This document shows, in pieces, positions 13,840-61,697 of a stretch of DNA of 64,000 nucleotides (position 1 is the first letter of the stretch; each line of letters begins with the position of its first letter). The position numbers and the translations under genes are program-made. Source of the DNA: Candidatus Thalassarchaeaceae archaeon (GTDB lineage Archaea; Thermoplasmatota; Poseidoniia; Poseidoniales; Thalassarchaeaceae); assembly GCA_030747485.1 (NCBI GenBank), contig JASLKP010000001.1:137971-201970 (forward strand). Direction: 5' to 3'. A model generated the notes under the pieces. The model was not told where the DNA came from. It saw only the letters and a program-made list of their open reading frames with translations, and did not search any database.

Positions 13840-16800
13840 TCAGTACACTGGACTGATGGCCGGCGGGTTAAACGTTGCACCGTAGGTCATCAGGATGTAT
13901 GCACTGCCACCAGCTGGAGCGTACTGCAAGGTAATCGTTGCAGAGTCAATGCGCTCATCATCATTGGCAGGATCAGTCATGCGTACTTGGATGAAATCAC
14001 TAGCGCCAAATCCTGCAGAACAGTCTTGAGCACAGTTGATTGAATCCTTGTAAGTCACCAATGCATCGGGGCTGTTTGATGGAATACGGCCGTAGACACC
14101 ATCTGGGTTCGCCAGACTTGTCGTGTAACTTTGCATTTCACCTTCACCGTCCATCCATTCAACCTTGACGAACACTGCCTGAGCAGCCAACTCTTCACCG
14201 TCTAGGACGGCGATTCGCCAATACCAGAGACTTTCATCGCTGGTATGTTGGAATCGAGCTTCTTCATCGAAGGTCATTCGTGGTGTTGCCTTTCCTGTTG
14301 AGTCCTGTGCTAGGCTCTGTGCCCACACGTAGATGACACCAGAAAGTACCACAGTAATCGCAACGAGTAGAATCGTAGCGATCACAGGGCTAACTGCTTC
14401 ATCATCATCCGATAGAGCGGTGAACTCGGCCTCGTCATCATCCTGACGCGAACGCATCAAGAGAGCACCGACGAAGGCACCAACTAGGCTGACTGCAACC
14501 AAGCCTGGAGCGAAGCTCGAGACACTGAGTGCAGGTCGTAGCATTACCATTGATGGCAGACCATTGCCTGTGTCATCAGTGGTGACGTTGTTGTTACCCC
14601 AGTTCAACTCTTCAAGTGCTGATCGGCGGATTGAACTGTCAATGTAATCACCAGTGTGTGGGTTAATCGTGCGTACTTCAATGAACGCGCGAACATACTC
14701 AGACGGGTTATTGACAGTGACGTGTCCACGGATAGTCTTGGATTCGCCAATGCCAGGTACGTCGCCATTGTCCCAGCTCAGAGTGATCTGGTCCTGCATT
14801 AGTGTTGGGTTGTCATCGACGTAGAAGCGAACTTGTACATCGTGAGCATAGTTGTACTCTGCAGGGTCATCACCTAGGTTGGTAATGTCGATGTCAACTG
14901 GTACGCGGGTGCCCGGTAGGACAGCCTCGATGTTGAGCCAGTTGAAGTCGCCACCATCAGTGAACTGGTAGTCTGCTCGTGCTTCAGGCGTGTTGATTAC
15001 ACGGATGTAAATCGTCTCACGCACTGTGCGCTGTTCGTAGACACCGGATGGGCTCTGCGCATAGTCGATGTGACTTGGCGCGGTTGCCGTATCGTTCAAC
15101 CATAGGTAGACCGTACAGTATACACCACTAGGTGGCTGAATCTGGTGAACACCACCATCAGCTACACCATCTCCATCTGCGTCTTGCAAGAAGTCGATTT
15201 CAGATGTAGGTGCATCAGTTGCAGCGTCATCAATGAGATCCAACTCTAGCGTATCTGCTGCGTTATCAACAGTGATAGAGAAGTAGTTCTCATATGGACA
15301 TAGCTGAGTTTCCTCAACACTCCATGACAACTGCTCTAGTGGGTGGTCGTTGTCAGCCATTAGGCGACTTAGATCAAACGTTAGGTTTGTTGCATCTTCG
15401 TCGTCTTCCATGACATCCCAGAACCAATCCAACTGTAGTGATCCATTGCTGGTCTCAACATAGTCGCCTGCAACAGCATCGAAGGTTTCGATGACTGGTG
15501 CGTCGTTGACTGGGTTCACGATGAAGTTCACAGTAACATCTGCTGCTTCACTGTTCATGTTTGCTCCATCTGACAGACTCATGACGATGTCACAGTTACC
15601 ACCAGCCTCATTGGCGGTGTTCTCTGCAATCTCAATGACGTTCATTGTCACAGTAGTACTGAATGGTGTACAATCCAAGCCCTCATCCGCCATCCATGTG
15701 TATGTCTGTGGGATTGCTTCATTGTTCCAATCAGATTGGGTCTGCTCGTTTGCCATGTCTACAACATATGATAGAGACGCGTTTGACGTATCACCAAGTC
15801 CCTTTGTGATGAGACCATTGAAGTTCTCATCGTGGACGTTGAGGTTACCTGCACCGTCGTCGTAGAACACAGGCATACAATCGAAGCGTGCTGTGTTACA
15901 GATGATAGGTGGGTCATTGACGTTCCAAATACCGACGTTCATGGTCTGCATTGCCGTCATACCGTGACTGTCGATGACAGTCAAGACAAGTCGGTGACCA
16001 CCGAACTGATCCTGTAGTGTATCGATTGACAACGATGCGTCGTTCAATCCACCAGCAGTACCCGCGTTACCGTTCAGTGTGTACGAGTACGGTGTCGCGT
16101 AGGTGTGTGTGTTACCTGGATAGTCGGTTACGAACCAACTCAGTGAATCCGAGGTGTCTTGATGATCTGACGCCTTGTCATTCAGTGTGATGGTATGCGA
16201 ACCACTGTCCTCATCATATTCGACATCTACTAGGTTCTCAATCACTGGCTTCGCACGCAGGATGTCAATGGTGACATCTTGGTTCGTAGTCATGATTAGT
16301 GGTGCGTAGTCGCCCCAGTCGTAGTAGTCGCCTTCTGCGTTGTTGGTCTTCACCATAATCTGGTAGATGTGGGCGTTGCCCGGTGTGTTCGAACCAGTGT
16401 ATGTTCGGAAGATCAACAGATGGTCATCCAGAGTACCGTCAGCGAGGTCTCCTCCAACGAGGTTGAAGTTGCCCATCTCAGTGAAGGTTTGTCCACTGGT
16501 TGTTGACGGATCATAGGATTGCTCAGGGAACACTCCCGCAACTTGACCTGCCGAGCCGAAGCCAGGCACGCCATCCCACTGGGTCAGAGCGATCCAGCGG
16601 ACGTTGTGGGTTGGTGAACCAACGCAGTCCCATGGAATACGGAATTCACTCACTGGTGTCGATAGGTATGGGTTGCCCATGAACAGGTAAGCGTCTAGGC
16701 TTGTGCAACTCGAAGTTGTGTCGACCCAGTTACCTGTTGGCATGACCTTGCGGATACCCCAGTTGTTGAGGTCCTCCATCCATAGCATGTAATCTGCCTC

Positions 16801-19800
16801 GAATGGCAAAGTATGCGTGACGTGCCAGTTGTCACCTTGGTTTGATCCACCTGCACCTGTGTCCAAGTAAGCCATACCATCGGTCAGACTGAAGGTCGGA
16901 CCAATCAATGCGACATACATGAAGTTAGCATCCCATGTAACGTGCATGTTTGCTTGGGTTGTAGCGTTAACAGCCACTGCACCAGGCATCATGTCGTCAG
17001 CAGAGTTTAGCAAGTTGCTACCATACCAATCGTAGTAGATACCGTCGATAGTAATCGAGCGACCTGCGCTTGCTCGCCATGATGGGCTCACGTATTCTGC
17101 GCGTCCACCGGGTACGTTAACCAGTTCTCCAGTAGCAAGGTTGGTTGCCTGCGCAATACTGCGGATGTACAAACCAACATCTGATGCTGGACCACCGTTG
17201 TGTGTCACTGTTAGATCCAAGAGGTTACCCTCGTGGACAATTGCATCAGAATCGATTACCAACTTGGTTGGACCTGCACCGATTGCACCATTGTTGAGGA
17301 CACCGTTACCGATGCTCGTGATGGTGGAGTATGCTCCTGCATTAATCTGGGTAGTTGGACCACCGCAAGTGACTGCATTTGCACAACCAGCTGTAGAGGA
17401 CCATGGTACTGGCATGATTACGCCAGGTGCTACCTCGAAGGAACCAGTCATGTTCTCGATGGTACCAGATGCACCATTGACGACCTTCAATACGGTGTCA
17501 GCATCTGCAACACCACCATTCCAGCGCATCATCTCGTGACCATCGGCTAGAACACCAATGCTTCCAGAGACTGACAAGCCAGTCATGTCGAGTACATCAT
17601 TGCCACCAGCACTGGAGACATCGAGTGCGATACCATAGGTATCGTTTGCCTGTAGGATTGCTCCTGCAGTGACGACGTCTACATCAGTTAGTTCGACAGC
17701 AATTGCATCACCAGTGATCAGTGAGTTACCTGCGAGGGTAAGGTCACCGCCATCCTGTGTTAGACCGAGACCGTAGCCAGTGACAGTTACGCCGTTTAGC
17801 GTGATGTCATCGCCACCGCCCATGATGTCAATGCCCGTTGTCTGCAAGTTGCTTGTGCAGGCGGTCACTTCCACCGTACCGGTTACAGTTGTTGCTGATG
17901 AACTGTAGTACGAGAAGTTACCAGCGTTGTTGAACTGGTGAACGAAGCTCGAACCGAGGTTCATTGTACCACTGTCCCAAGACTCTGCTTGACCAGCATC
18001 AGATGTGGTCGTGTGCGGAGTGTTGGAACTACCGTATGCGCGAGATGTCCAGCGCACTGAATCGCCAATACATACACCTGTGAGGTGTGATGGGCTGAAA
18101 GTGCTCTGTTGCATGTCGACGTTGTGGATACGTGCTGCACGACCACCCATTGCAGTGTATGACGAACCATTGTCCGTTACATCGCAACCGTTGGTGTTCA
18201 ATCCGTTCATGACTGTCGAGATGACGTTGTTTGCCATGAAGACCTCATCAAGGCCACAACCATTCACGTAGATACCAACCGCACTTGTCGGTAGGCGACC
18301 ATACGAGAAGTCGATCGTGTTCGCGTTGATGTGAACTTCTTGTCCACTTCGTACACCACTCAGTGCAATACCACCGTCAGCGTCAGTACAACTGTTACCT
18401 TCGATTGTACCAAAGCCGTTTAGGGCGTAGATACAAGCGTTGGATGCACTCTTGATACCTGTGATGTCGTTGTTGGTAATTGTCCACTCACGAGTACCAC
18501 GTAGGTAAATTGGGTTGTCAGCATGTAGTGTGTTGCCGTCAATCTCAATGTCGTGCACAGTACCGTCCTGATTGTATACAGCGTACCGTGGACTCATACC
18601 CTCGATGGTATTGCCATTGAATTGTGCATTTGTTGCATCTGCATTCAGATAGTACCACATACATAGGTTCACACAATCTACGAAGGTGTTACCGTTCACT
18701 TGCATGTTGTTAGTACCGTTACCATTGTAGGTGGATGATGTTGCATAGAAGTTGTTCGGTACGAATACACCTACACCACAATCAACCATCACGTTGTTCT
18801 CAATGACGACGTCGTCATAACCAGATGACTGGATACACATGTCATCATAGAAAATCGATGTTGACTTCTCAGATGAACGATAGTGGACAATCATGTTGTC
18901 GGTCACTTCAAGATCACCATTGTTCAGATAATATCCTGAGCCAGTTGCAATTGCATTCAGACCCAACAAATCACTGTTGGTGATGTGAATCTGTCCATAT
19001 GCATAGGTACCGGAGTAACCAATACGGAAGCTGCTTGGACCACTGGTGCTCTCGTCACCCATTGCAATGATTGTCACGTTGTCCATGTACAAGTGTCCAT
19101 CATAAGGATAGACTGGGTACATCGTCGTCATCTGGTTGTAAGTTCCAGTTGTAAAGATGACTGAATTGTTGAACGATACACCCTTACTTCCAATGTCGAA
19201 GTAGTTGTATGGCGAATCCATTTGGATAACCTGGTTGGTCATATCATATTCTGTGCTAGAACCTTGATCTCCAACGTAGTAACCATACTCATCAACTCCG
19301 TCAACTGTGCGGTCATCTCGGTAATTGAGACCCGTACAGGCACCCATTACATTGTAACTTGCACTGGCGGAACCGTAACAGATACGTGAATCAATACTTT
19401 GAGTCAGCGTGGCTGATGCAGTGTTACCTGATGTATCAGCGACTGTGATACCATTCATTGCGTAACGGATGTCAATGGTACTGCCTGAGTTGTACGCAAT
19501 CTTCGCAATCGTCACCAATTGGTAACCTGCGAGGTTTGCAGTACTCTGTCCAGATGAATCAACTGTCCAAGTCACGAATGTCAAGTCATTGACTTCACCG
19601 GTTGCATCAGTTGTACCACTATCAATCACCTTGTTGTCTCCATCAAGAATCTTGACTGGGGCGCTTGCAACACCTGAGCCGTCCGCAGAGATGTCCACGT
19701 CTAGCGAGCGTAGTCGCGTAAACTTGGATGCGTCATCTGCAGTGACTGTGTTGGCGTCAACAGTACCTTCTAGGAAGTCCATGGTTGCACCATTGGACAA

Positions 19801-22800
19801 TTTAACATCGTCCGTGTTACCATTGAAATCAGTGTTCGAGATGAACACATTACCGCTACCTGCGTGGTTGACACCTACGCCATTGTTGTCAATGGTCATC
19901 GCATCGAATTCCCAGTCATGAGTACTGGATGCTAGTACCTTGATTCCGCAGTAACCTGCATTGGTAATCGAACCGCTAGCGTCCATGTTCAGTGCCTTAG
20001 ATAGTACAAGACCATCGTTGGTCTGTGAATCTAGAGCCATGTTGGTCAAACCGAGTTTACCACCAGCTGCGTTAGTCATACGAACACCATAGCGACCACC
20101 ATCAACTTGCAGAGAGTCAACTGTTGCAGATGTTGAACCATCTATCAGTAGACCCTGATCTGTTGGGCTGGTTACAGTCACTGTACCGATGTCAGCCGCT
20201 GCACGTGCACCACCAATTTGGATACCCGTGTCTGCGCCTGTAATCACACCGTTGTCGATTTGAGCAGTACCGAATTCACGAGCATAGTCTGCAGCCAATA
20301 GGCTGGAGACCGAGTTGCCTGTGCGGACGGTTAGGTCCAAGCGGTCTGCGTAGTAGTCAGCACCGTAGTGTACCATATCGATGTACATGACCACTTGCTC
20401 GAGGTCTGCTGCACTTGTATCGACAATTGGGAACGCTACCCGAGCACCTGCTGGGTTAGGTGTAACTGCGCTGTATGCGTAGTCTTGACACACGTTGTAG
20501 TTGCCCCATAGACCGTTGAAGCCTTCTGGAGGTGCCCACTGACCAGCGTAATAGAACGATGGCCAGTAACTTCCCCAGAAGTGGTATGGGTAGTAATTCG
20601 TGTTCGCCGTTAGATCGTCAGCTGCCTCATAGCGGAAGCCGAAATCAGAAGGATATGCATCACGACCGTAGTAACCGTTAGGTCCCTGGGTGTAACCACC
20701 GTAGTTGATCAGATAGTAGTAGTAACCGTAGCGGTAGGAACCACCTGGGTTGTACTCATACCCGTAAAGGTTGCAATCCCAGACAGGAGCACCACCGACA
20801 CCACCGCTGTAGGTGAGGCCGTTTGCTGTTGCATCAGATGTACTCCAAGGGTAGTAACCTTCGACGCTTGCGTCAGTTACGTTGGTTAGAGAGCCACCAG
20901 TTGTCTTGGTTGCAATACGATATCGGTCAGTGGTTAGGAAGTACTTGGCGTAGTACGAACCGAAATATGGATCCGAGTTACCGCCACCATACACTTGGTT
21001 TACACCAACTTGCACGTAATTGTTCTCCTTAGCGAATGACGTGATGTCGATTGCGTGGGTCTTCCAACCTGCGCTCTCACCAGATAAGATGGTGGAACGA
21101 TAGATGGTTGGCAAACTCATGCCGCCTTCTACATCCATACCGACCGTGTTGTCAGTCAGTGTGAAGCCATCGATTGAAGGTGCTGCGTTGTGCACTTCAA
21201 TACCCGTTGCCGCATTCTTGACAAGGACGTTGGATAGGCTGCTACCAGCTGTGTTCTCTAGGTGAATACCTACACCAGAGTTCACGTTCTGTACGACTGC
21301 GTTGTTGATGATTAGTGTACCACCATCAACATCGACGGTTGCTGTGGATGCTGCAGCGTTCGGACTGCCGTAAGCAGTTGAACCGTTGCGCATCTCCAGT
21401 GTACCACCATCGCCGACAGAAAGACCACCGTTCATGTCACGGATGGAACCAGCATCAATGGTCAACTGACCACCGTTGTCGATATCCATGTTCCATGGGT
21501 ATGTGCTCTGCTGTGCCTTGATGTGTCCGTAGTCACCATCGTGCTCTGAAATTAGCAACTCTGCACCATTACGTAGAGTGATGGTTGGGTTGCTGCTTGC
21601 AGTTCGGTTGATGCGCAGTGATGTACCCTGTAGGTGTACACTGCAGCCATCAAGCACCATGTCAGATGACAAGGTAATGATTTGGCGAGTGTAGGTGTAG
21701 TAACCGCCTACGTTAGATGCCGAATCATTGTTGCTGAAGAAAGTACAATCCTTTGTAGCGCCACCGAAGTCCATTGGGAACGCTTCAAGCTTCAGGTAAA
21801 TCGATGCACCAACCTCTAGAGGTAGATCACCGGCGTAACCTGCACCAATGTTGGTTGCGAAGCCAGCAGTATACCATGGGTCAGTTGGTGTTGTCACGTT
21901 CTGACCTGCACCACCACTAGCGTAGATGCTGTGGTCTGTGTACGAGGTGGAATGAGCGGTGTTACCGTTATTGTCCATCTCGTAAAGGTCTGTGATGAGC
22001 CAAACAGTCGCTGCACCACCAGAATCTGTCTTGCCTGTTCCAACGTTGAAGATCTCTGTACCTGAACCATCGACTAGAGCGGTGGTTACAGCGTGGTTAG
22101 CCTGGAAGGCGTCACCGGAATTTCCGCTGCGGTAAACAGATACTGTTGCAGATCCACCGAAGTAAACTGCTGCACTGCTGGAAGCCGCTTCAACCCAACA
22201 GACCGAGGTGTCGGCCTGATTGTTGGAGTCGAGACAATCGTTACCCTGGAAGTTAACATCAATCAAGCGGATGTCACCGTTGGTGCCAGCGCTTGCGAGG
22301 TTATTGCCCCAGTTTGTCTGTCCTGTTACGACCATGTCTGCGATTGTTAGAACCGAGTTCCTCGCGTACGCGAAGTTGTTATTCGTCGAATCACCGGACA
22401 TTGTACCATCAGAAATAGTGACAACGTTGCTACTGCTTGTCGATGCACAGTTTGCAGATACCCAAGTATCGCTTGAACCGTCACCAAGTGAGACACCATC
22501 CATTGCGATGTTCCATCCACAGCCGTTGATTGTCATGCCAGCAGCAGATACTGTGCTACCAGACATTCTGTCTGTGGAAGGTGCTGAGCCAGATAGGCTT
22601 AGTGCACCACCGAGATCGATGTTATCCATATTGCTTGGCTGTGTGCGTGACATCGTTAGGCCACCATCAGCTACCATACCATCCATGGTCCAACCGGTAT
22701 CACCGATTGCTGGACTGCTCGCGCCCGCGGGCGCGATGTAGTATCCGTTAGAGTCACCAGTACTGTCAAGGTCCTCTAGGTGAAGACTGTCAGTAGCGTG

Positions 22801-25800
22801 TGTGGTCATTGCAGCGACGTAGTTGTTCATGTCTACATTGAAGGCATAGATACTCGTTCCACTGCTGGATGAACCAGTCTGTGCAACTGCAGTACCACTC
22901 TGTTGACCAGAGAAGCCACTTGCATCAACTGTGATGTTAGACATCCAAAGGGAGTCTGCAGCACCGAAGATACCGTTTACACCAGCATCTGTGATGTCAA
23001 CGTTCTCCATGACTACTGTTGAACCAGATCCTGTGTTAACAGCACCTTGTCCAGCGTAACCGTGTGTGTTACAATCAGTTGCTGAACCACCAATCCAAGT
23101 TAACGATGAGTCATCAGGTAAATCGACACAGGAGTCAGCACTGTTAGAGACGCTGACACCAGATAGGTCGAATCCTGTACCTTGACCGCTACCGTGACTG
23201 ATTGCCGTATCCACGTTGTTGAATGTAACATCACTGAATGTGAAGTTACCAACGTTGCCATTGTAGTGAGGTGATGCGCCGTGGCGACTACCTGCACTGA
23301 TTGCGATGGATAGGTTCTCAAAGTTGGTGTGGGTAAACGTGTGACGATCTTCTGTGTCTACACAACCATTGGTGAAGGCAAGACCCTTCGCATAGTTGGT
23401 ACCCATGTTCTTAATCATCACTGGGTGTGTTGCGTTACCATTCACAGTGAGCGAATTACATGCACCTGTGAAGACAATACCCTTGCCCTCAGCAATCTGA
23501 ACTTCGACACCAGCCTCAATTGTGAGATCTGCAGAGACCTGCAGATAGTCACCATTGGCTGGGTTGACACGGATTGGGCTCTGCTCTGCGTCCCAAATCG
23601 TGGGGTCAGTAATGTCCTGAGTCACGTCCATACCTGCGCCATCGAATGGAATCATCTTTGAACGGATGCTGCATTCGATTGCAGAGTTGTAGAAGCAGTA
23701 GTATGCTCCATAGTAACCCCAGTATGGTGCGAGGTCAATGTTGTTGACATACGAAGCAGTGCTTGGCAATGATGGCATGGTGGTTCCCCATCCATAGTAC
23801 ATCATCTGTGCACTGTTCGTTGTGCTGCTTTGACTGAACTGCATTGCACCGTGGCGGATTGCGTGGATCTTGTGACCCTGAGTGCCGTTGAATGTGCTAC
23901 CGAAGTAATCGAACTCAAAGCCCTCTGGTAGGTCTACAACAGTACTGCAATCTCCGCGGTTCTGGGTAAAGTATCGTGTACAGTAGTATGTGTACGGGTA
24001 ACCGTTACCACTGCCGACCATTTCCTCATCGTAGTTGAATAGAGGAGACATGCCTGCTGCGTAAGTCTCTACACCATAGTCAGCGCCATCTGTGGCGATA
24101 CGGTAGTTGTTCGTGAATTGGTTCACGCCCGCTACATATCCTGGACCTCGACTTCGTAACATTTCACCACTAGTACCCGCTGGGTTCTGGAAGCCAATGT
24201 ACTCGTAGTCGTAGTACGGGTTACTGCTCGTGTCATATGTGAATTCAATCTCGTTTGTTACATCGTACAAGCGAACCTGATAGCTCACTGTGTAACCTTG
24301 GCTGAATCCAGCATTCATTTCATTCCACTCAAGCACGAAGATCTTCGTTGGTGTGGCGATATCATAGGAAAACGCCGTGGTGTTGTTCCAGTTACCATTC
24401 AGATCCTTTGCGTGCATTGTGTACTCAACTGTGTTGCCACGGTCAGTACCAGGGATTGAAGCAGTCCACGTACATTCATTCATTTCACAGTTAGCGCGAG
24501 TTTGTCCGACTGGAGAGAATGAACGTGTGGTCCAAGCACTCCATGTGCCTGCGTCAGCATCTAATGTGCGGTACTGCATGTGTGGTCCTTCAAGGACACC
24601 GTTAGCATCAGTACCCGAACTTGTATTCAGACCCATTGCTGGGTCGCCAACATCCGAAATCGTGAATGTCAACGAACGCGATGTGTCAACGTATGTGTCC
24701 ATTAGGCCACCGTGATTGAACTCTGGTGGGAAGGTATCAGGCGTAGGCTTGATTGAACTTACCTTTGAAGCAATTTGCCAACCGTTGTTGACCTTGCCGT
24801 CCCATCCTGGGTTGCACCATCCGTTCCATGCGTAGTTGTACTGGTAATAGTAGTACGTTGCATAGCAAGGATTACTGTAAGCTGCACCGCTGTATGTTGA
24901 GCGTACAAACATAATCGGGTGGTTGTTTGTGTTGATGCAGAACAAGTTGCGGTTGTTACTGTTCAAGCTGTAAGATGCGTTCCATGAGAAGGAACCGAAA
25001 TACCCGGTGATATCACCAGGAATTGCAACCTTAACGTAACCATCATCAGTTGTACCGTAATCAAACGTGTTGTAAATATCGCCGCCAGAGTTAGGCTGTT
25101 CGATACCATTGCCGTTTGCTACATCGTATCCCATGACACCCCATGAGGAGCCGTCGTGATACCAAATGACGTCGTGACCGACACCATTCTTGGCATGCAT
25201 TGAGATACCTGGCAAGTTAACCTTCTCTAGGTTAGCCTGAGCATATGCGGAAGTCACTAAGCGAGTTGTTCCCGGATAGTAGCGAAGATCGAGTACTGCA
25301 TTTGTACTGAAGCAGGATAGTGATCCTGTGCCACAGTTAGATGTGTCGTATTCCATGTGATATTCGCGGCTAGGCTCGTAGTAGGTCATCTGCCAATCGT
25401 AGTAGCGCACTGCGCTGTAAAACGAGTAGGAGTTCCATCCACTAGCCTTGACTTGCCACTTGTTGTCGCCATCTGCAGCGTTATCGATTGCTTCGATGCT
25501 GTAGCCATATGGCGAAATTGCAGCTGCGTTGATGTTGTTTGGCATACCGGTTCCACCAGCAGGTAGAGTACCAGTTGTTCCGCTTACACCGCCGTTAGGT
25601 GGTGCTGGAGTATCGCGGAAGGCCCAGAAATAGTCAACATCAGTTGTCCCTGTTGCCGGAGCAGTCTGTGCAGGGATTGTAGCCTTGAAGAAACATGCAG
25701 CGCTAGCAGCACAGGTTCCAATTGTGGAGGAGGTGACTCCCGTCCAAGAACCGCCATCAACACGGTACCACAGGTGAGGTGCACCTGCGCTTGTTGTGTC

Positions 25801-27579
25801 AATACCACTAGCATCTGTGAGTTCCAAGTACATTGTACGCGCGCCCGCGAGATACGTGGTCTTTCCATCGAAAGCCGCGTGTTCCGCGAGAGGTGCTGTT
25901 GTATCAGAACCACCAGTGTATGTAATTTCCAAATGCGGCTTGTTTGCATTGTTGTTACATCCATAGTAGGTGTAGGTGTTCTGTGTGCACCAATACCAAT
26001 ATGGCGCGTTCGCAGTGTTGCGTACTGCCAAGCCGAGAATATTACCGCTGGTACCAGCGCCATTTCCATCGACTGCATCCTGTACGTCAGATACACCGTT
26101 TGAATTCATCGAAATCGAACGAACTGCACCACGGCTACCCGAGTAGTAGATACCTGGGTCGCTGAGTGTTGTTGTTGCGGACGAATCTGCACTGTTCTTT
26201 GCATATCGAGCGATGTACATACCATAACTGTAGGTGTAACTTGATGGATCAATCATTGTGCTACTCTGTGAAGAGCCACTCTTCATGACCGCGACCTCGA
26301 AGCTGCGGGAACCTGAGCGATATCGGCTCACGTGGTTCTCGTAGTCTACGCTGCTAACAGTTGCACCACTTGGCATGATATTGGCCAAGTTGAATCGGTG
26401 AACAGCATAGCGGTTGTAATACGAGTAACTCGATGAACTCAAGCAAGCAGTTGTGTAACTGTTTGCACCCTGGCAAGTTGCTGCGTTGTAGTTGGTGGAG
26501 TATGCTCTCTCGTAGGAGAAGCTGGTCCAACCGTAGTTTACTGCGTAGCGGTATGCATACCATGTGGTTGCTGACAACACATCGAGTGTTGGGTCAATCA
26601 TAATTGGGTAAGTTCGGTTCTCATCTGTCAACCATGCCGCATCAATTGCGGTAGTTAGCTGAACGTGCTCACCAATCTGCATGATGAGGTACTGACCAAT
26701 TGCTGGCTCTCCCTCAATGTTTGAATCGATTACGAGAGGTGCCGGAACAGTTGCTAGCAAGTCGCCAGTCTCAATGTTCCTAATTGTGAACGAATCGTTG
26801 GTCTTGAAGACCTCGCCATCGCGCAATGGGCTCTCTCCGTTAAAGATCGAATAACCGTGAGGAAGAAGCATTTCTTCCTGCAAACCGAACCAACCATCAA
26901 ATCCTTCTGTAAAGAAGGGCATGTCACGTACGACGAGGTTTTGCTTGACCTGAGTGCTCGTTACCTGATAGTCAAGGGCAATTCCCTCTCCTAGTGGGTA
27001 TCGTAGCACGTTGCCACCAGTCTGTGCGAAATCGGCCGTTGGGTCGAGTCCGTACATCATTGGCGCATTCAAATCGCGCTCCATCATCACTACCGTGGGA
27101 TTAATTCCAGTCAGAATCGGATCGATGTTTCCATCGACCTGAAGCGTGACACCACGGTTTACGTCCATGCTAAATTCGGTTGTGAAGGAGTTCTCCGTCA
27201 CAGCCCAACCCATCGAGGTGGTCTCGATGTTGAGGTCGATCTCCTGCCACACTCCCCCGTCATCGAGGTAGTGGATGGGATCGGTGGCCACAATTGCGAC
27301 CATACCCTCATCAGTTACGTACGTCTTGGAGGTTGCGGTACGACTACCGACGAGTTCATTCTCATCGGGATAGCCGATTTCGGTGTAATCCACCGTTTCC
27401 AAATCCTCCACGCTTAGAGCAAACGGATCATCCACACTGGCCTCAGCATCATCAGCCGCAGTGGCTGAAATTGCGTCAGTCGCAGGAGGAACCGTTTGGC
27501 CCCAGCTCATTCCTATCATCAATAGCGTAAGCAGCAACCAAGTGCCGCCCATTGCCTTATTCTTTCCTTTTGTCACCAT
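13840..27579 (-). CDS. Giant (about 4,580 aa) secreted cell-surface protein/adhesin with beta-helix repeats, cadherin/VCBS-like and CARDB-like segments, a TM anchor and a C-terminal archaeal pilin-like module
   Basis: One uninterrupted ORF runs over 13.7 kb (the track gives 13840..27735). The likely start is the ATG at 27579 (MVTKGKNKAMGGTWLLLTLLMIGMSWGQ, a signal peptide), preceded by GGGGT 8 nt upstream. PbH1-like repeats include NNVMVDCGVGVF, NGNTFVDC, NGNTIEG and TNNDITG. VNDAPVI/NDPPII motifs and CARDB-like DITNLGDDPAEY are present. The composition is very Thr/Ser/Gly/Asn/Tyr/Asp-rich. Confidence 0.9.
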   Translation of the reverse strand: MVTKGKNKAMGGTWLLLTLLMIGMSWGQTVPPATDAISATAADDAEASVDDPFALSVEDLETVDYTEIGYPDENELVGSRTATSKTYVTDEGMVAIVATDPIHYLDDGGVWQEIDLNIETTSMGWAVTENSFTTEFSMDVNRGVTLQVDGNIDPILTGINPTVVMMERDLNAPMMYGLDPTADFAQTGGNVLRYPLGEGIALDYQVTSTQVKQNLVVRDMPFFTEGFDGWFGLQEEMLLPHGYSIFNGESPLRDGEVFKTNDSFTIRNIETGDLLATVPAPLVIDSNIEGEPAIGQYLIMQIGEHVQLTTAIDAAWLTDENRTYPIMIDPTLDVLSATTWYAYRYAVNYGWTSFSYERAYSTNYNAATCQGANSYTTACLSSSSYSYYNRYAVHRFNLANIMPSGATVSSVDYENHVSRYRSGSRSFEVAVMKSGSSQSSTMIDPSSYTYSYGMYIARYAKNSADSSATTTLSDPGIYYSGSRGAVRSISMNSNGVSDVQDAVDGNGAGTSGNILGLAVRNTANAPYWYWCTQNTYTYYGCNNNANKPHLEITYTGGSDTTAPLAEHAAFDGKTTYLAGARTMYLELTDASGIDTTSAGAPHLWYRVDGGSWTGVTSSTIGTCAASAACFFKATIPAQTAPATGTTDVDYFWAFRDTPAPPNGGVSGTTGTLPAGGTGMPNNINAAAISPYGYSIEAIDNAADGDNKWQVKASGWNSYSFYSAVRYYDWQMTYYEPSREYHMEYDTSNCGTGSLSCFSTNAVLDLRYYPGTTRLVTSAYAQANLEKVNLPGISMHAKNGVGHDVIWYHDGSSWGVMGYDVANGNGIEQPNSGGDIYNTFDYGTTDDGYVKVAIPGDITGYFGSFSWNASYSLNSNNRNLFCINTNNHPIMFVRSTYSGAAYSNPCYATYYYYQYNYAWNGWCNPGWDGKVNNGWQIASKVSSIKPTPDTFPPEFNHGGLMDTYVDTSRSLTFTISDVGDPAMGLNTSSGTDANGVLEGPHMQYRTLDADAGTWSAWTTRSFSPVGQTRANCEMNECTWTASIPGTDRGNTVEYTMHAKDLNGNWNNTTAFSYDIATPTKIFVLEWNEMNAGFSQGYTVSYQVRLYDVTNEIEFTYDTSSNPYYDYEYIGFQNPAGTSGEMLRSRGPGYVAGVNQFTNNYRIATDGADYGVETYAAGMSPLFNYDEEMVGSGNGYPYTYYCTRYFTQNRGDCSTVVDLPEGFEFDYFGSTFNGTQGHKIHAIRHGAMQFSQSSTTNSAQMMYYGWGTTMPSLPSTASYVNNIDLAPYWGYYGAYYCFYNSAIECSIRSKMIPFDGAGMDVTQDITDPTIWDAEQSPIRVNPANGDYLQVSADLTIEAGVEVQIAEGKGIVFTGACNSLTVNGNATHPVMIKNMGTNYAKGLAFTNGCVDTEDRHTFTHTNFENLSIAISAGSRHGASPHYNGNVGNFTFSDVTFNNVDTAISHGSGQGTGFDLSGVSVSNSADSCVDLPDDSSLTWIGGSATDCNTHGYAGQGAVNTGSGSTVVMENVDITDAGVNGIFGAADSLWMSNITVDASGFSGQQSGTAVAQTGSSSSGTSIYAFNVDMNNYVAAMTTHATDSLHLEDLDSTGDSNGYYIAPAGASSPAIGDTGWTMDGMVADGGLTMSRTQPSNMDNIDLGGALSLSGSAPSTDRMSGSTVSAAGMTINGCGWNIAMDGVSLGDGSSDTWVSANCASTSSSNVVTISDGTMSGDSTNNNFAYARNSVLTIADMVVTGQTNWGNNLASAGTNGDIRLIDVNFQGNDCLDSNNQADTSVCWVEAASSSAAVYFGGSATVSVYRSGNSGDAFQANHAVTTALVDGSGTEIFNVGTGKTDSGGAATVWLITDLYEMDNNGNTAHSTSYTDHSIYASGGAGQNVTTPTDPWYTAGFATNIGAGYAGDLPLEVGASIYLKLEAFPMDFGGATKDCTFFSNNDSASNVGGYYTYTRQIITLSSDMVLDGCSVHLQGTSLRINRTASSNPTITLRNGAELLISEHDGDYGHIKAQQSTYPWNMDIDNGGQLTIDAGSIRDMNGGLSVGDGGTLEMRNGSTAYGSPNAAASTATVDVDGGTLIINNAVVQNVNSGVGIHLENTAGSSLSNVLVKNAATGIEVHNAAPSIDGFTLTDNTVGMDVEGGMSLPTIYRSTILSGESAGWKTHAIDITSFAKENNYVQVGVNQVYGGGNSDPYFGSYYAKYFLTTDRYRIATKTTGGSLTNVTDASVEGYYPWSTSDATANGLTYSGGVGGAPVWDCNLYGYEYNPGGSYRYGYYYYLINYGGYTQGPNGYYGRDAYPSDFGFRYEAADDLTANTNYYPYHFWGSYWPSFYYAGQWAPPEGFNGLWGNYNVCQDYAYSAVTPNPAGARVAFPIVDTSAADLEQVVMYIDMVHYGADYYADRLDLTVRTGNSVSSLLAADYAREFGTAQIDNGVITGADTGIQIGGARAAADIGTVTVTSPTDQGLLIDGSTSATVDSLQVDGGRYGVRMTNAAGGKLGLTNMALDSQTNDGLVLSKALNMDASGSITNAGYCGIKVLASSTHDWEFDAMTIDNNGVGVNHAGSGNVFISNTDFNGNTDDVKLSNGATMDFLEGTVDANTVTADDASKFTRLRSLDVDISADGSGVASAPVKILDGDNKVIDSGTTDATGEVNDLTFVTWTVDSSGQSTANLAGYQLVTIAKIAYNSGSTIDIRYAMNGITVADTSGNTASATLTQSIDSRICYGSASASYNVMGACTGLNYRDDRTVDGVDEYGYYVGDQGSSTEYDMTNQVIQMDSPYNYFDIGSKGVSFNNSVIFTTGTYNQMTTMYPVYPYDGHLYMDNVTIIAMGDESTSGPSSFRIGYSGTYAYGQIHITNSDLLGLNAIATGSGYYLNNGDLEVTDNMIVHYRSSEKSTSIFYDDMCIQSSGYDDVVIENNVMVDCGVGVFVPNNFYATSSTYNGNGTNNMQVNGNTFVDCVNLCMWYYLNADATNAQFNGNTIEGMSPRYAVYNQDGTVHDIEIDGNTLHADNPIYLRGTREWTITNNDITGIKSASNACIYALNGFGTIEGNSCTDADGGIALSGVRSGQEVHINANTIDFSYGRLPTSAVGIYVNGCGLDEVFMANNVISTVMNGLNTNGCDVTDNGSSYTAMGGRAARIHNVDMQQSTFSPSHLTGVCIGDSVRWTSRAYGSSNTPHTTTSDAGQAESWDSGTMNLGSSFVHQFNNAGNFSYYSSSATTVTGTVEVTACTSNLQTTGIDIMGGGDDITLNGVTVTGYGLGLTQDGGDLTLAGNSLITGDAIAVELTDVDVVTAGAILQANDTYGIALDVSSAGGNDVLDMTGLSVSGSIGVLADGHEMMRWNGGVADADTVLKVVNGASGTIENMTGSFEVAPGVIMPVPWSSTAGCANAVTCGGPTTQINAGAYSTITSIGNGVLNNGAIGAGPTKLVIDSDAIVHEGNLLDLTVTHNGGPASDVGLYIRSIAQATNLATGELVNVPGGRAEYVSPSWRASAGRSITIDGIYYDWYGSNLLNSADDMMPGAVAVNATTQANMHVTWDANFMYVALIGPTFSLTDGMAYLDTGAGGSNQGDNWHVTHTLPFEADYMLWMEDLNNWGIRKVMPTGNWVDTTSSCTSLDAYLFMGNPYLSTPVSEFRIPWDCVGSPTHNVRWIALTQWDGVPGFGSAGQVAGVFPEQSYDPSTTSGQTFTEMGNFNLVGGDLADGTLDDHLLIFRTYTGSNTPGNAHIYQIMVKTNNAEGDYYDWGDYAPLIMTTNQDVTIDILRAKPVIENLVDVEYDEDSGSHTITLNDKASDHQDTSDSLSWFVTDYPGNTHTYATPYSYTLNGNAGTAGGLNDASLSIDTLQDQFGGHRLVLTVIDSHGMTAMQTMNVGIWNVNDPPIICNTARFDCMPVFYDDGAGNLNVHDENFNGLITKGLGDTSNASLSYVVDMANEQTQSDWNNEAIPQTYTWMADEGLDCTPFSTTVTMNVIEIAENTANEAGGNCDIVMSLSDGANMNSEAADVTVNFIVNPVNDAPVIETFDAVAGDYVETSNGSLQLDWFWDVMEDDEDATNLTFDLSRLMADNDHPLEQLSWSVEETQLCPYENYFSITVDNAADTLELDLIDDAATDAPTSEIDFLQDADGDGVADGGVHQIQPPSGVYCTVYLWLNDTATAPSHIDYAQSPSGVYEQRTVRETIYIRVINTPEARADYQFTDGGDFNWLNIEAVLPGTRVPVDIDITNLGDDPAEYNYAHDVQVRFYVDDNPTLMQDQITLSWDNGDVPGIGESKTIRGHVTVNNPSEYVRAFIEVRTINPHTGDYIDSSIRRSALEELNWGNNNVTTDDTGNGLPSMVMLRPALSVSSFAPGLVAVSLVGAFVGALLMRSRQDDDEAEFTALSDDDEAVSPVIATILLVAITVVLSGVIYVWAQSLAQDSTGKATPRMTFDEEARFQHTSDESLWYWRIAVLDGEELAAQAVFVKVEWMDGEGEMQSYTTSLANPDGVYGRIPSNSPDALVTYKDSINCAQDCSAGFGASDFIQVRMTDPANDDERIDSATITLQYAPAGGSAYILMTYGATFNPPAISPVY

Positions 27580-27915
27580 ATACATACCCCAGTCTGTTGT
27601 ATGAACAGGCGTTCCCACGCTTTGTCGCTCATATAACCGTATGGGTGCAAACCGTTTGAATCGCCCATTCAGTTCGGTAAACTGCGCCGCATTTGATGAG
27701 GCATGAAATCGGGAAAAAATTACTAGTACAAACAATTTGTAACAAAATTTTCAAGAGGAAAAAAAAGGGAATTATTGGAGTGAAATTTCGAAATATCTCA
27801 GTGTATTTGACAGTGAAATCTGAATTAAGAACGCACTACAGAGCGGCTTTTTCCAAAGACCAGGGCATTTGATGATCATTTATGAGAGATTTTTGAACGG
27901 CAGGAAGTTGAAACG

Positions 27916-36723: not shown

Positions 36724-36789
36724 AGCAACTAGTGAGCGGCGCAGGGATATAACAGCCCGGACGCGTAGGGCCGCTGGAGGAGATGAGGT

Positions 36790-60861: not shown

Positions 60862-60873
60862 GGAGGTTAAGAT

Positions 60874-61695: not shown

Positions 61696-61697
61696 TT

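What the first reader, a model, noticed from the sequence alone, without database searches (positions are those of the whole stretch)
13840..14457. Archaeal type IV pilin-like module fused in frame behind the membrane anchor of the giant adhesin
The last 205 codons read MRSRQDDDEAEFTALSDDDEAVSPVIATILLVAITVVLSGVIYVWAQSL..., followed by a globular part of about 155 aa. AVSPVI-x-ILLVAITVVL is the hallmark N-terminus of archaeal pilin-like proteins (Pfam Pilin_N/DUF1628: a class III signal plus a hydrophobic helix). It normally occurs at the extreme N-terminus of free-standing 150-250-aa proteins. Here it follows, with no stop codon, a hydrophobic helix plus basic stop-transfer (FAPGLVAVSLVGAFVGALLMRSRQ). 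That segment looks like the natural end of the adhesin, because every other surface protein in the window ends that way. The topology is self-consistent: ectodomain outside, TM1, acidic cytoplasmic loop, pilin helix going back out, pilin globular domain outside. This places the A|V cleavage site at the cytoplasmic face, where A24 peptidases act, and an A24 peptidase is encoded at 61698..62714. There are three readings. (i) It is a true fusion that tethers a giant adhesin to a pilin-like subunit, either released by the peptidase or incorporated into a fibre. (ii) There are two products, the second made by internal initiation at ATG 14457. (iii) A stop codon was lost recently between two genes. 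I know of no described example of the first architecture.
Basis: partly seen in the sequence, partly recalled or inferred. Interest (0 to 1): 0.8.

Follow-up and report, generated by a model that had tools for sequence, protein, structure and literature searches.

The report
Giant archaeal surface protein ending in a pilin
A 4,600-residue surface protein of a marine planktonic archaeon (Marine Group II) ends in a membrane hairpin followed by a complete type IV pilin with its peptidase cleavage site, and this fusion is conserved across the whole order, so the pilin signal sits about 4,400 residues from where such signals normally occur.

Summary
One uninterrupted ORF (13840..27735, minus strand) runs from a Sec-type signal peptide through about 4,350 ectodomain residues into a conserved tail:
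- SFAP motif, TM1 and a basic pair;
- a 20-residue acidic loop ending DDEA|VSPVI;
- a pilin alpha-1 helix;
- a 155-residue beta-sandwich head.

The tail scores above threshold for Pilin_N (PF07790) and TIGR02537.

The fusion is not a recent stop-codon loss or an assembly error. More than 85 independent homologous sequences keep the junction in frame. Full-length orthologues down to 34% identity (4,372-4,640 aa) are colinear end to end. Ala at -1 is invariant. The alpha-1 helix is far more conserved than TM1. No Met in the loop is positionally conserved, so a conserved internal start is unsupported.

Three further findings:
- A second protein family with an unrelated ectodomain carries the same hairpin.
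- Smaller paralogues join the last ectodomain domain directly to the pilin head, with no hairpin.
- Apparent free-standing copies of this head are assembly chimeras or gene-call artefacts.

Best model, inferred and not shown: the FlaK-like A24 peptidase cleaves at the cytoplasmic face. This would yield a TM1-anchored giant protein and a mature minor pilin that stays docked to its base. I found no description of this architecture in the literature.

The parts
13840..27735 (-). Whole ORF of the giant surface protein (4,631 codons from the first TTG). The likely start is ATG 27579 (or 27585 / 27555), giving MVTKGKNKAMGGTWLLLTLLMIGMSWG|Q, a Sec-type signal peptide.
   Evidence: Orthologue alignments begin at residues 2-6 of the MVTKG start. 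The protein is colinear with L004 at 66.6% identity.
14518..27500 (-). Ectodomain of about 4,350 aa. It is acidic (485 D+E against 166 K+R) and rich in Gly, Thr, Ser and Asn. It has no recognisable Pfam, NCBIfam or PDB sequence match. The last ~400 aa form a conserved membrane-proximal cassette that is shared even with P0193, whose N-terminal part differs.
14506..14517 (-). SFAP motif (S4407-P4410) capping TM1 on the outer face. The pattern is xF[A/L/V]P[S/G/T].
   Evidence: SFAP[SGT] occurs in 83 of 85 junctions. All 19 internal-pilin representatives have it, including the second family. In a six-frame scan of 289 kb it is found only in front of the pilin module, 8 of 8 occurrences.
14455..14505 (-). 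TM1 (GLVAVSLVGAFVGALLM), a stop-transfer helix running from outside to inside.
   Evidence: Predicted as helix 107-130 of the 326-aa model. It is only moderately conserved: mean top-residue frequency 0.72.
14395..14454 (-). Predicted cytoplasmic loop RSRQDDDEAEFTALSDDDEA: a basic pair followed by an acidic stretch, ending at the -1 Ala (A4447, 14397-14395).
   Evidence: Loop length is 19-20 aa in 66 of 85 homologues, with about 10 acidic residues. Position -1 is Ala in 85/85, -3 is D/E in 85/85, -4 is Asp in 82/85.
14392..14397 (-). Predicted prepilin-peptidase (class III signal) cleavage site, A4447|V4448.
   Evidence: Start of the Pilin_N and TIGR02537 matches. Free-standing MGII pilins have the same context...NEEA|VSPVIATIL. 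Family 2 has A or G at -1. Cleavage itself is inferred, not shown.
14308..14394 (-). Pilin alpha-1 helix VSPVIATILLVAITVVLSGVIYVWAQSLA (inside to outside).
   Evidence: Mean top-residue frequency 0.97 and entropy 0.13 bits over 95 sequences, against 0.72 and 1.02 for TM1. Predicted as helix 3-32 in the model of the mature module.
13843..14307 (-). Pilin head, a 155-aa beta-sandwich at the extreme C-terminus. The stop codon is 13840-13842.
   Evidence: The AF2 model of the mature module has pLDDT 88.9 overall and above 90 across most of the head. The best Foldseek matches are the H. salinarum archaellin 9eq7, the Natrinema PilA1 pilus 9myg and FlaF 4p94, with probability 0.99-1.0 but E ~1e-3 and TM 0.33-0.45. 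Invariant residues: Y101, G102, D117, D133, Y158.
61698..62714 (-). Candidate FlaK-type A24 prepilin peptidase, with WLD30HKTRRVSN and HGGAD171AK motifs. It is 47 kb from the pilin module and so not linked to it.

Best explanation
The gene encodes a conserved Poseidoniales (Marine Group II) giant surface protein. Its C-terminal ~225 residues are a membrane-hairpin cassette: SFAP motif, TM1, a basic pair, a ~20-aa acidic cytoplasmic loop, a class III (prepilin) cleavage site, a type IV pilin alpha-1 helix, and an Ig-like pilin head.

Shown by sequence:
- The fusion is real and ancient.
- The pilin part is a bona fide Pilin_N module. Its alpha-1 helix is nearly identical to that of free-standing MGII pilins.
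- The head is an evolutionary partner of the membrane-proximal ectodomain.

Inferred:
- The Sec system exports the ectodomain and TM1 stops transfer.
- The pilin helix re-inserts from inside to outside and carries the head back to the outer face, next to the base of the ectodomain.
- The FlaK-like A24 peptidase then cuts DDEA|VSPVI at the cytoplasmic face.

The gene would then be a two-product polyprotein. One product is a TM1-anchored giant protein with a short acidic tail. The other is a mature minor pilin whose free N-terminal helix can engage the type IV pilus machinery or filament while its head stays docked to the base of the giant protein. This would couple the giant protein to the pilus system at 1:1 stoichiometry.

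The confidence of 0.55 applies to the full model including cleavage. The architecture alone, as a real and conserved fusion, I rate at about 0.95.
For: Pilin membership:
- Pilin_N and TIGR02537 score above their cutoffs.
- The only sequence hit in the PDB is a Pilin_N filament subunit.
- The model shows an alpha-helix plus a beta-sandwich. Archaellin, pilin and FlaF structures are the top fold matches.

Conserved fusion:
- The junction is intact in more than 85 homologues.
- In L004, from another species' MAG, the ORF is open for at least 3,471 aa upstream of the motif and is 66.6% identical and colinear with the window protein.
- The gene is intact at 4,372 aa on a 3.0-Mb contig at 57x coverage.
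- Full-length representatives of 4,372-5,559 aa carry the module at the extreme C-terminus. Four of them (P0189, P0183, P0179, P0190) are colinear end to end at 34-46% identity.

Cleavage-site constraint:
- Ala at -1 in 85/85; D/E at -3 in 85/85.
- Family 2 has A or G at -1, the two residues allowed at prepilin sites (the rule itself is from established knowledge).
- The context matches free-standing MGII pilins, NEEA|VSPVIATIL.

The helix behaves as more than an anchor: alpha-1 top-residue frequency is 0.97 against 0.72 for TM1.

Head and ectodomain act as a unit:
- Hairpin-less paralogues P0194, P0195, P0197 and P0203 join the last ectodomain domain directly to the head.
- The head was never found as a genuine free-standing pilin.

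Machinery:
- A FlaK-like peptidase is in the window.
- A T2SSF platform gene and two small genes with N-terminal hydrophobic, pilin-like helices lie ~9 kb upstream of the orthologue in L014.
Against: - No experimental or proteomic evidence of cleavage exists.
- No known A24 substrate has a transmembrane helix, let alone a 4,400-aa domain, upstream of the site. The loop is strongly acidic, unlike classical basic leaders.
- After cleavage the giant protein would still be held by TM1, so the benefit of covalent fusion is unclear.
- The hairpin-less paralogues show that the head can function with no pilin helix at all. That fits a purely structural or anchoring role equally well.
- The fold matches are weak (E ~1e-3, TM below 0.5), and FlaF and FlaG, membrane-anchored archaellum components rather than filament subunits, are among them.
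- No T4P ATPase or platform gene is in this window. The peptidase is 47 kb away.
- The low-confidence AF2 region (residues 1-100) gives no support for docking of the head onto the ectodomain.
Confidence: 0.55

Rival explanations
1. Uncleaved two-helix anchor. The pilin-derived helix and head have been co-opted as a permanent membrane hairpin anchor and envelope-binding foot, in the manner of FlaF/FlaG. The class III site is a relic or serves another interaction. Nothing is released or polymerised.
For: - FlaF (4p94) and FlaG (5tuh) soluble domains are among the best fold matches.
- The head occurs without any pilin helix in paralogues P0194, P0195, P0197 and P0203, which have an ordinary C-terminal TM anchor.
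- The head is never found as a genuine free-standing pilin.
- No T4P machinery is in the window.
Against: - A relic site would not keep Ala at -1 in 85/85 sequences, nor only A or G at -1 across two families.
- An anchor helix would not be held at 0.97 top-residue frequency while TM1 drifts at 0.72.
- It would not stay almost identical to the alpha-1 of free-standing pilins of the same lineage.
Confidence: 0.3
2. Double processing. SFAP-TM1-RR is an archaeosortase/exosortase-like tripartite sorting signal in an internal position. A sortase-like enzyme cuts at SFAP and lipid-anchors or releases the giant protein, and the A24 peptidase independently frees the pilin. TM1 plus the loop is a discarded spacer. 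This is compatible with the best explanation.
For: - A motif, a TM helix and a basic cluster are seen in every junction.
- Divergent members read PGFLPS and PGFVPS.
- An internal PGF tripartite signal created by gene fusion is processed by ArtA in Haloferax volcanii (review PMC6098224).
Against: - All CTERM sorting-domain HMMs score below their cutoffs on the family 1 segments: Heimdall-CTERM 14.6 bits against 24, PGF_CTERM 7.7 against 24.5. On a family 2 segment PEP_CTERM also falls short (12.4 against 16). Only the generic LPXTG_anchor model passes there (18.1 against 15.9), matching just the TM-plus-basic part.
- The motif was found only in front of the pilin module, 8 of 8 occurrences in 289 kb. 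It therefore does not look like a general sorting tag.
- No archaeosortase was seen in the window.
- No paper links archaeosortases to MGII.
Confidence: 0.1
3. Two products by internal translation initiation. The pilin would be made separately from ATG 14457, or from a loop Met in other species, in addition to or instead of the fusion.
For: - MRSRQDDDEAEFTALSDDDEA|VSPVI would be an acceptable 21-aa leader.
- 57 of 85 homologues have some Met in the loop.
- Gene callers often start there.
Against: - M4427 is not conserved: homologues read LVLQSRR, LAFSSRR and LLSRSRA. Met positions in the loop vary between -2 and -17, and 28 of 85 loops have none.
- There is no GGAGG-type ribosome-binding site like the one before genuine free-standing MGII pilin genes (sequence).
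- The two short gene calls that I checked on long contigs were caused by Ns or a scaffold gap. Others start at the edges of short contigs. Nanopore-type frameshifts fragment the giant gene elsewhere.
Confidence: 0.04
4. Artefact: a recent loss of a stop codon, or a sequencing or assembly error, joined two adjacent genes.
For: None beyond the unusual architecture. Some database entries do show a separate small 'pilin' gene.
Against: - The junction is in frame in more than 85 independent assemblies from many samples and technologies, at 34-75% identity.
- The separate entries are explained as contig-end truncations, Ns, a scaffold gap, or chimeras.
Confidence: 0.01

Closest known systems
Archaeal type IV pilins / class III signal-peptide proteins (Pfam PF07790 Pilin_N, TIGR02537; e.g. 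Haloferax PilA1-6, Natrinema PilA1, Sulfolobus UpsA/AapB)
   Same: The module has an A|VSPVI-type site with a small -1 residue, a ~29-aa hydrophobic alpha-1 helix and a beta-sandwich head of about 155 aa. The alpha-1 helix is nearly identical across paralogues of one lineage. The HMM matches are above threshold.
   Different: Known members carry the signal at the extreme N-terminus behind a leader of a few to ~30 residues. Here it starts about 4,395 residues into a 4,579-aa protein, behind a Sec-exported ectodomain, a transmembrane helix and an acidic loop.
Modular (bimodular) type IV pilins such as Streptococcus sanguinis PilB/PilC, and large N-terminal-pilin proteins also present in MGII (e.g. 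P0308 at 1,164 aa, P0301 at 874 aa)
   Same: A pilin module is covalently combined with large functional or adhesive modules. The S. sanguinis case is recalled from memory.
   Different: In those proteins the pilin module is N-terminal and the extra module is grafted onto its C-terminus, so the whole protein is one pilus subunit. Here the order is reversed and a membrane hairpin separates the two parts. Cleavage would therefore disconnect them.
Archaellum FlaF/FlaG
   Same: They have an archaellin-like N-terminal helix and a beta-sandwich soluble domain. As I recall, they are reported to remain membrane-anchored at the archaellum base, and FlaF to bind the S-layer. Both are among the fold matches. 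JGI names the orthologues 'FlaG/FlaF family flagellin'.
   Different: FlaF and FlaG are small free-standing proteins. As I recall, they are not thought to be processed at a conserved prepilin site. The window module keeps an invariant -1 Ala and a Pilin_N-type site.
Tip adhesin plus minor-pilin complexes of bacterial type IVa pili (PilY1/PilC with PilVWX-FimU)
   Same: The functional analogy is a large non-pilin adhesin physically coupled to a minor pilin, so that the pilus machinery presents it. This is from established knowledge.
   Different: There the adhesin and the minor pilins are separate gene products with no sequence relationship to this protein, and the system is bacterial. No membrane-hairpin precursor is involved.
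Internal archaeosortase signal of Haloferax volcanii HVO_0405 (ArtA substrate with a non-C-terminal PGF tripartite structure)
   Same: A motif-TM-basic tripartite element lies in the middle of a fusion protein and is followed by a further domain. It is a precedent that a membrane sorting or processing signal still works when it is internal (PMC6098224).
   Different: That case is a strain-specific fusion to a cytoplasmic NifU domain, processed by ArtA. Here the fusion is order-wide and the downstream part is an exported pilin. The SFAP element does not match the PGF-CTERM HMM.

Membership tests
Archaeal type IV pilin-like proteins (Pilin_N PF07790 / TIGR02537) | Profile match to the N-terminal pilin domain above the curated threshold | tested here: met
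   PF07790 scores 43.4 bits against a cutoff of 25.2. TIGR02537 scores 46.2 against 20. The match is still significant within the whole 4,579-aa protein.
Archaeal type IV pilin-like proteins (Pilin_N PF07790 / TIGR02537) | Small residue (Gly/Ala) at -1 followed by a ~20-30-aa hydrophobic helix | tested here: met
   The site reads A|VSPVIATILLVAITVVLSGVIYVWA. Ala at -1 in 85/85 homologues, and A or G in family 2.
Archaeal type IV pilin-like proteins (Pilin_N PF07790 / TIGR02537) | Signal at the extreme N-terminus behind a short leader | tested here: not met
   The site is at residue ~4,395 of 4,579, preceded by an ectodomain, TM1 and a 20-aa loop.
Archaeal type IV pilin-like proteins (Pilin_N PF07790 / TIGR02537) | Fold of an alpha-1 helix plus a beta-sandwich head, as in solved archaeal pilins and archaellins | tested here: inconclusive
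   The AF2 model has pLDDT 88.9, with a helix at 3-32 and nine strands. The top Foldseek hits are 9eq7, 9myg and 4p94 with probability 0.99-1.0, but E ~1e-3 and TM 0.33-0.45.
Archaeal type IV pilin-like proteins (Pilin_N PF07790 / TIGR02537) | Cleavage by an A24 prepilin peptidase | not testable with these tools
   This needs co-expression and processing assays or N-terminal proteomics.
Archaeal type IV pilin-like proteins (Pilin_N PF07790 / TIGR02537) | Assembly into a filament by a T4P ATPase and platform | not testable with these tools
   No ATPase or platform gene is in the window. A T2SSF gene lies ~9 kb upstream of the orthologue in L014.
A24 prepilin/preflagellin peptidases (FlaK/PibD type), for ORF 61698..62714 | Two catalytic Asp residues, the second in a GxGD-like motif, in a polytopic membrane protein | tested here: met
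   The motifs are WLD30HKTRRVSN and HGGAD171AK. Both Asp residues are invariant in 26 homologues. HGGADAK aligns to the GGGDGK of FlaK 3S0X.
A24 prepilin/preflagellin peptidases (FlaK/PibD type), for ORF 61698..62714 | Profile match above the curated threshold | tested here: inconclusive
   As a single sequence it scores Arc_PepC_II 26.7 bits (below the 29.9 cutoff) and FlaK 20.7 bits, with no PF01478 hit. The family profile against PDB FlaK gives E 8.4e-6. Homologues carry a precomputed PF06847 assignment.
Archaeosortase/exosortase-type sorting signals (PGF-CTERM, PEP-CTERM and similar), for the SFAP-TM1-RSR element | Tripartite signature: motif, TM helix, basic cluster | tested here: met
   The pattern xF[ALV]P[SGT], a 16-18-aa TM helix and R/K-x-R/K occurs in 85 junctions.
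Archaeosortase/exosortase-type sorting signals (PGF-CTERM, PEP-CTERM and similar), for the SFAP-TM1-RSR element | Match to a curated CTERM sorting-domain HMM | tested here: not met
   On the family 1 segments all models are below cutoff: Heimdall-CTERM 14.6 against 24, PGF_CTERM 7.7 against 24.5. The window's own segment has no hit. On a family 2 segment PEP_CTERM scores 12.4 against 16, and only the generic LPXTG_anchor model passes (18.1 against 15.9).
Archaeosortase/exosortase-type sorting signals (PGF-CTERM, PEP-CTERM and similar), for the SFAP-TM1-RSR element | Located at the extreme C-terminus and found on many proteins of the genome, with a cognate sortase | tested here: not met
   The element is followed by ~205 more residues. 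It was found only in front of the pilin module, 8 of 8 occurrences in 289 kb. The presence of a sortase was not tested.
Modular type IV pilins (pilin module plus grafted C-terminal module) | Pilin module N-terminal, extra module C-terminal, forming one continuous subunit | tested here: not met
   The order is reversed and a TM hairpin intervenes.

The most novel reading that the evidence does not exclude
A prepilin peptidase substrate whose 'leader peptide' is a complete 4,400-residue Sec-exported surface protein plus a transmembrane helix. That would be an internal class III signal defining a new precursor class, a membrane-hairpin polyprotein. [quoted passage not shown] The cassette (SFAP-TM1-loop-A|VSPVI-alpha-1) would be a portable module, since two unrelated ectodomain families already carry it.
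Probability: 0.4. Interest if true: 0.85.

Novelty: new variant of a known kind. Interest (0 to 1): 0.72.

Why it matters
Class III (prepilin) signals are treated as strictly N-terminal, in prediction tools and in the textbook picture of type IV pilus biogenesis. Here a complete, strongly constrained prepilin site sits behind a 4,400-residue ectodomain and a transmembrane helix. It is conserved across Poseidoniales and recurs in a second protein family.

If the site is cleaved, the substrate range of A24 peptidases widens to polytopic precursors. It would also reveal a way of tying giant surface proteins to pilus machinery in organisms that cannot yet be cultured but dominate surface-ocean archaeal communities. 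Attachment to particles and algae is thought to shape their ecology (PMC6461757).

If the site is not cleaved, this is a clear case of a pilin being exapted as a membrane anchor.

Either way there are practical consequences:
- Gene callers and databases currently hold many truncated 'flagellin-like' fragments of this tail.
- They also hold at least four chimeric entries.
- N-terminus-only pilin predictors will miss this class.

Tried and rejected
1. Free-standing paralogues of the head. P0100, P0092, P0118 and P0158 looked like free-standing pilins with this head, and briefly suggested concerted evolution between free and fused copies. I rejected this.
- L005 and L006 are ~1.5x-coverage contigs; L005 still carries adapter sequence.
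- Their 5' parts match the true free-standing pilin locus (M24 peptidase, then pilin). The 3' part of L005 matches the giant gene's tail plus the downstream HAD gene; L006 matches the tail from position 754 onward.
- The two parts overlap in the ~100-nt conserved alpha-1 coding stretch, so these are assembly chimeras.

2. Short 'pilin' gene calls that start inside the loop on long contigs (P0127, P0117). They are explained by Ns and a scaffold gap, not by stop codons. The fragmented giant genes in L001, L002 and L013 have many small adjacent calls typical of indel errors: L001 and L002 are pilon-polished contigs and L013 has 0.64x coverage.

3. The genome-contig scan with a single sequence returned only two loci. 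An alignment query would have reached further.

4. A domain search of the ectodomain for adhesin-type domains in Pfam, NCBIfam and PDB sequences found nothing except a sub-threshold tandem-95 repeat hit.

5. CTERM sorting-domain HMMs on the SFAP-TM1 segments gave only sub-threshold or generic matches.

6. Literature searches found no description of the architecture. I searched for MGII + pilin + adhesin, Poseidoniales + type IV pili, PF07790, MGII + giant protein, and archaeosortase + MGII. I also read the Makarova 2016 T4P census.

7. The fold search with the 326-aa model was dominated by generic 'TM helix plus Ig domain' hits such as Kir channels. The model of the mature module alone was more informative.


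Full report
**What is in the window.** The minus-strand ORF 13840..27735 is open for 4,631 codons. The probable start, MVTKGKNKAMGGTWLLLTLLMIGMSWG|Q at 27579, looks like a Sec signal peptide, and orthologue alignments begin at residues 2-6 of it. The last 225 codons read, in order:
- ...SVS-SFAP;
- GLVAVSLVGAFVGALLM (TM1);
- RSRQDDDEAEFTALSDDDEA (loop);
- VSPVIATILLVAITVVLSGVIYVWAQSLA (alpha-1);
- a 155-aa C-terminal domain.

The predicted cleavage point A4447|V4448 is at 14395|14394.

**Is it a pilin module?** Yes, by sequence.
- The tail matches Pfam Pilin_N at 43.4 bits (cutoff 25.2) and TIGR02537 at 46.2 bits (cutoff 20).
- Pilin_N is the only Pfam family found in the whole 4,579-aa protein.
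- The only PDB sequence hit is a Pilin_N filament subunit, 8fj5_A.
- An AlphaFold2 model of the mature module (184 aa, 69-sequence alignment) has mean pLDDT 88.9. It shows a 30-residue N-terminal helix and a nine-strand beta-sandwich.
- Its best Foldseek matches in the PDB are the Halobacterium salinarum archaellin (9eq7), the Natrinema PilA1 pilus (9myg) and the FlaF soluble domain (4p94). Probabilities are 0.99-1.0, but E-values are about 1e-3 and TM-scores 0.33-0.45. The fold is consistent with the superfamily but not proof of it.

**Is the fusion real?** Yes.
- A search with the 326-aa tail returned 116 proteins. Every hit long enough to reach the junction keeps it in frame.
- In 85 complete junctions the SFAP[S/G/T] motif occurs 83 times and TM1 is 16-18 residues.
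- The loop is 19-20 residues in 66 cases, with about 10 acidic residues.
- Position -1 is Ala in 85/85, -3 is D/E in 85/85, and -4 is Asp in 82/85.
- A MAG of another species (L004) has the reading frame open for at least 3,471 codons upstream of the motif. It is 66.6% identical and colinear with residues 861-4575 of the window protein.
- A 3.0-Mb contig at 57x coverage carries an intact 4,372-aa orthologue.
- An exhaustive profile search of 1.84 billion representative proteins found full-length proteins of 4,372-5,559 aa with the module at the extreme C-terminus. Four of them (P0189, P0183, P0179, P0190) are colinear with the window protein from end to end at 34-46% identity.
- The window itself comes from a Candidatus Thalassarchaeaceae (Marine Group II b) MAG. 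The peptidase ORF is 100% identical to QGF94_00585.

A recent stop-codon loss or an assembly error is therefore excluded.

**Separate 'pilin' genes in databases are artefacts.** Many hits are short proteins that begin in TM1 or in the loop.
- Two short calls checked on long contigs have a continuous upstream frame, interrupted only by Ns (L011) or by a 10-N scaffold gap exactly at SFAP (L012).
- In L001, L002 and L013 the giant gene is broken into many small adjacent calls typical of indel errors. L001 and L002 are pilon-polished contigs and L013 has 0.64x coverage.
- Four entries (P0100, P0092, P0118, P0158) carry a genuine short leader, M(N/Q/K)(K/N)(D/E)NRNEEA, in front of this head domain.
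- Of the two whose contigs I examined, L005 is made of two pieces. One is the 5' flank, leader and helix of the true free-standing MGII pilin locus (M24 peptidase, pilin, glycosyltransferases; L007-L010). The other is the tail of the giant gene with its downstream HAD gene. The pieces overlap in the ~100-nt conserved alpha-1 coding stretch.
- L006 has the same M24-peptidase 5' part and switches to giant-tail sequence in the same stretch.
- Both contigs have ~1.5x coverage, and L005 still carries Nextera adapter sequence. I treat all four entries as assembly chimeras.

So the head domain has no genuine free-standing copy in what I examined.

**Internal initiation.** M4427 is not conserved. Homologues read ...LVLQSRR...LAFSSRR and ...LLSRSRA. 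57 of 85 loops contain a Met, but at positions from -2 to -17, and 28 have none. Genuine free-standing MGII pilin genes have a GGAGGA ribosome-binding site upstream; the loop does not. A second product by internal initiation cannot be excluded for this species, but it is not a conserved feature.

**Evidence on mechanism.**
1. The alpha-1 helix is almost invariant: mean top-residue frequency 0.97 and entropy 0.13 bits over 95 sequences. TM1 is ordinary (0.72; 1.02) and the head variable (0.55; 1.81). The helix differs at only about three positions from that of free-standing MGII pilins, VSPVIATILMVAITVVLAGVLYVWASSLA. A plain membrane anchor would not be constrained like this. Recognition by a peptidase, an assembly platform or a filament core would do so.
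2. The -1 residue is Ala in all of family 1, and Ala or Gly in a second family. These are the residues tolerated at prepilin sites (established knowledge).
3. ORF 61698..62714 is a FlaK-type A24 peptidase homologue. It is sub-threshold as a single sequence. A 26-sequence profile hits the FlaK structure 3S0X at E 8.4e-6, aligning HGGADAK with GGGDGK, and D30 and D171 are invariant. It lies 47 kb from the giant gene, so the argument is presence in the genome, not linkage.
4. In L014 a T2SSF platform gene and two small genes with N-terminal hydrophobic, pilin-like helices lie about 9 kb upstream of the orthologue. This is weak linkage.

**Two unexpected relatives.**
- Family 2 comprises P0267, P0273 (1,816 aa), P0306 (2,360 aa), P0295 and P0307. 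It has an unrelated glycine-rich ectodomain (ALK_LTK_GRD), a different head and a basic rather than acidic loop. It nevertheless keeps ...(S/T)PSFAP(S/G)-TM-...KDDDA|VSPVIAIILMVAITIVLAGVLWLW at the C-terminus. The hairpin is therefore a portable cassette.
- Hairpin-less paralogues P0194 (707 aa), P0195, P0197 and P0203 contain both the membrane-proximal ectodomain domain and the pilin head. The ~70 residues from SFAP to the end of alpha-1 are replaced by a short linker, and an ordinary TM anchor sits at the far C-terminus. The two extracellular domains that flank the hairpin therefore belong together on the outer face of the membrane. This fits a head that stays docked to the base of the giant protein. 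It also shows that the head can work without being a filament subunit.

**The SFAP motif.** It is nearly invariant (0.91) in both families, and divergent members read PGFLPS or PGFVPS. A motif, a TM helix and a basic cluster recall archaeosortase or exosortase sorting signals. An internal PGF signal created by gene fusion is processed by ArtA in Haloferax volcanii (PMC6098224).

However, the CTERM HMMs score below threshold, apart from a generic LPXTG_anchor match on a family 2 segment. In a six-frame scan of 289 kb of related DNA the motif occurs only in front of the pilin module, 8 of 8 times. I keep sortase-like processing as a minor, non-exclusive hypothesis.

**Best explanation and rivals.**
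- Architecture, confidence about 0.95: a Sec-exported giant surface protein anchored by a helical hairpin whose second helix and following domain are a bona fide type IV pilin module.
- Best mechanism, 0.55: the A24 peptidase cleaves DDEA|VSPVI at the cytoplasmic face. This gives a TM1-anchored giant protein and a mature minor pilin that remains bound to its base and links it to the pilus machinery or filament.
- Main rival, 0.3: no cleavage, and the pilin has been exapted as a FlaF-like anchor or foot.
- Minor rivals: additional sortase-like processing (0.1, compatible with the best model); internal initiation (0.04); artefact (0.01).

What argues against the best model:
- there is no precedent for an A24 substrate with an upstream TM helix;
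- the loop is acidic;
- there is no obvious advantage in a covalent fusion that is then cut;
- hairpin-less paralogues exist.

**Known or new?** Automatic annotation already labels orthologues 'archaellin/type IV pilin N-terminal domain-containing protein' (NCBI MEC8576648.1, 4,578 aa) or 'FlaG/FlaF family flagellin' (JGI). I found no paper that describes a C-terminal or internal class III signal behind a giant ectodomain. This includes the MGII genomics paper I read (PMC6461757) and the census of archaeal T4P systems. I class it as a new variant of a known kind: known modules in an undescribed arrangement that is order-wide and recurs in a second family. 'Adhesin' remains an inference, because no adhesin domain was detected.

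Noticed in passing
L005 (1-1243) and L006 (1-1370); proteins P0100, P0092, P0118, P0158: These public metagenome contigs and clustered proteins fuse the 5' flank and leader of the free-standing MGII pilin gene to the tail of the giant gene (in L005 also the downstream HAD gene). The join lies in the ~100-nt conserved alpha-1 coding stretch. They are probably assembly chimeras, from ~1.5x-coverage contigs; L005 retains adapter sequence. They could mislead anyone looking for free-standing copies of this pilin.
   Followed up: yes
P0267, P0273, P0295, P0306, P0307; L015 10001-17083: A second family of large surface proteins has a glycine-rich ALK_LTK_GRD ectodomain and carries the same SFAP-TM-loop-A|VSPVIA pilin cassette at the C-terminus. 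Its loop is basic (RRKKKGRGKDDDA) and its head domain is different. Its taxonomy is unknown.
   Followed up: partly
P0194, P0195, P0197, P0203; L016/L017 10001-12124: Smaller paralogues (416-707 aa) join the membrane-proximal ectodomain domain directly to the pilin head with no hairpin. P0194 and P0197 then have Asp-rich calcium-binding-type repeats (DSDGDGVGDNSD) before the C-terminal anchor. The anchor is (A/G)LPSIG-TM-R in P0195, P0197 and P0203, and a plain TM helix plus a charged tail in P0194.
   Followed up: partly
window 58321-62714: This cluster holds a 371-aa protein with a class III-like N-terminus (DEG|LTAVIEFLSAFVLFLVIV) and a sub-threshold lamin-tail-domain match (32.6 bits against a cutoff of 34.3). 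Next come three consecutive KaiC/RecA-like ATPase genes (59400-61695), then the FlaK-like A24 peptidase on the opposite strand. It may be an accessory module of a pilus or archaellum-like system. No secretion ATPase or platform gene is in the window.
   Followed up: partly
L014 1-1028: On a 3.0-Mb Poseidoniales contig, a T2SSF (PilC/TadC/FlaJ-like) platform gene and two small genes with N-terminal hydrophobic, pilin-like helices lie about 9 kb upstream of the giant-pilin orthologue.
   Followed up: partly
window 13744-13771: A perfect 13-bp stem with a 2-nt loop (CCCCCTCCTCACT/AGTGAGGAGGGGG) lies in the G+C-rich spacer between the giant gene's stop codon and the HAD phosphatase gene. No T-run follows it. 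A second GC-rich palindrome is at 13789-13802.
   Followed up: no
window 5199-8366 (-): A 1,055-aa membrane-anchored protein combines a plastocyanin/cupredoxin domain, an AMPK1-type glycogen-binding module, an alpha-amylase catalytic domain, a Pro/Glu-rich spacer and a pacifastin-type protease-inhibitor domain. This is an unusual mixture. It sits next to glycogen/maltodextrin metabolism and sugar ABC-transporter genes.
   Followed up: no
window 31384-36015 (-) and 36028-36804 (-): A very large (1,543-aa) MacB/FtsX-type permease with two FtsX domains lies next to its ABC ATPase gene, immediately downstream of two large surface-protein genes (28000-31251 and the giant gene).
   Followed up: no
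L001, L002, L013: In these contigs the giant gene is broken into 8-10 adjacent small gene calls, as expected from indel errors. L001 and L002 are pilon-polished assemblies and L013 has 0.64x coverage. Protein databases therefore hold many spurious fragments of this family.
   Followed up: yes
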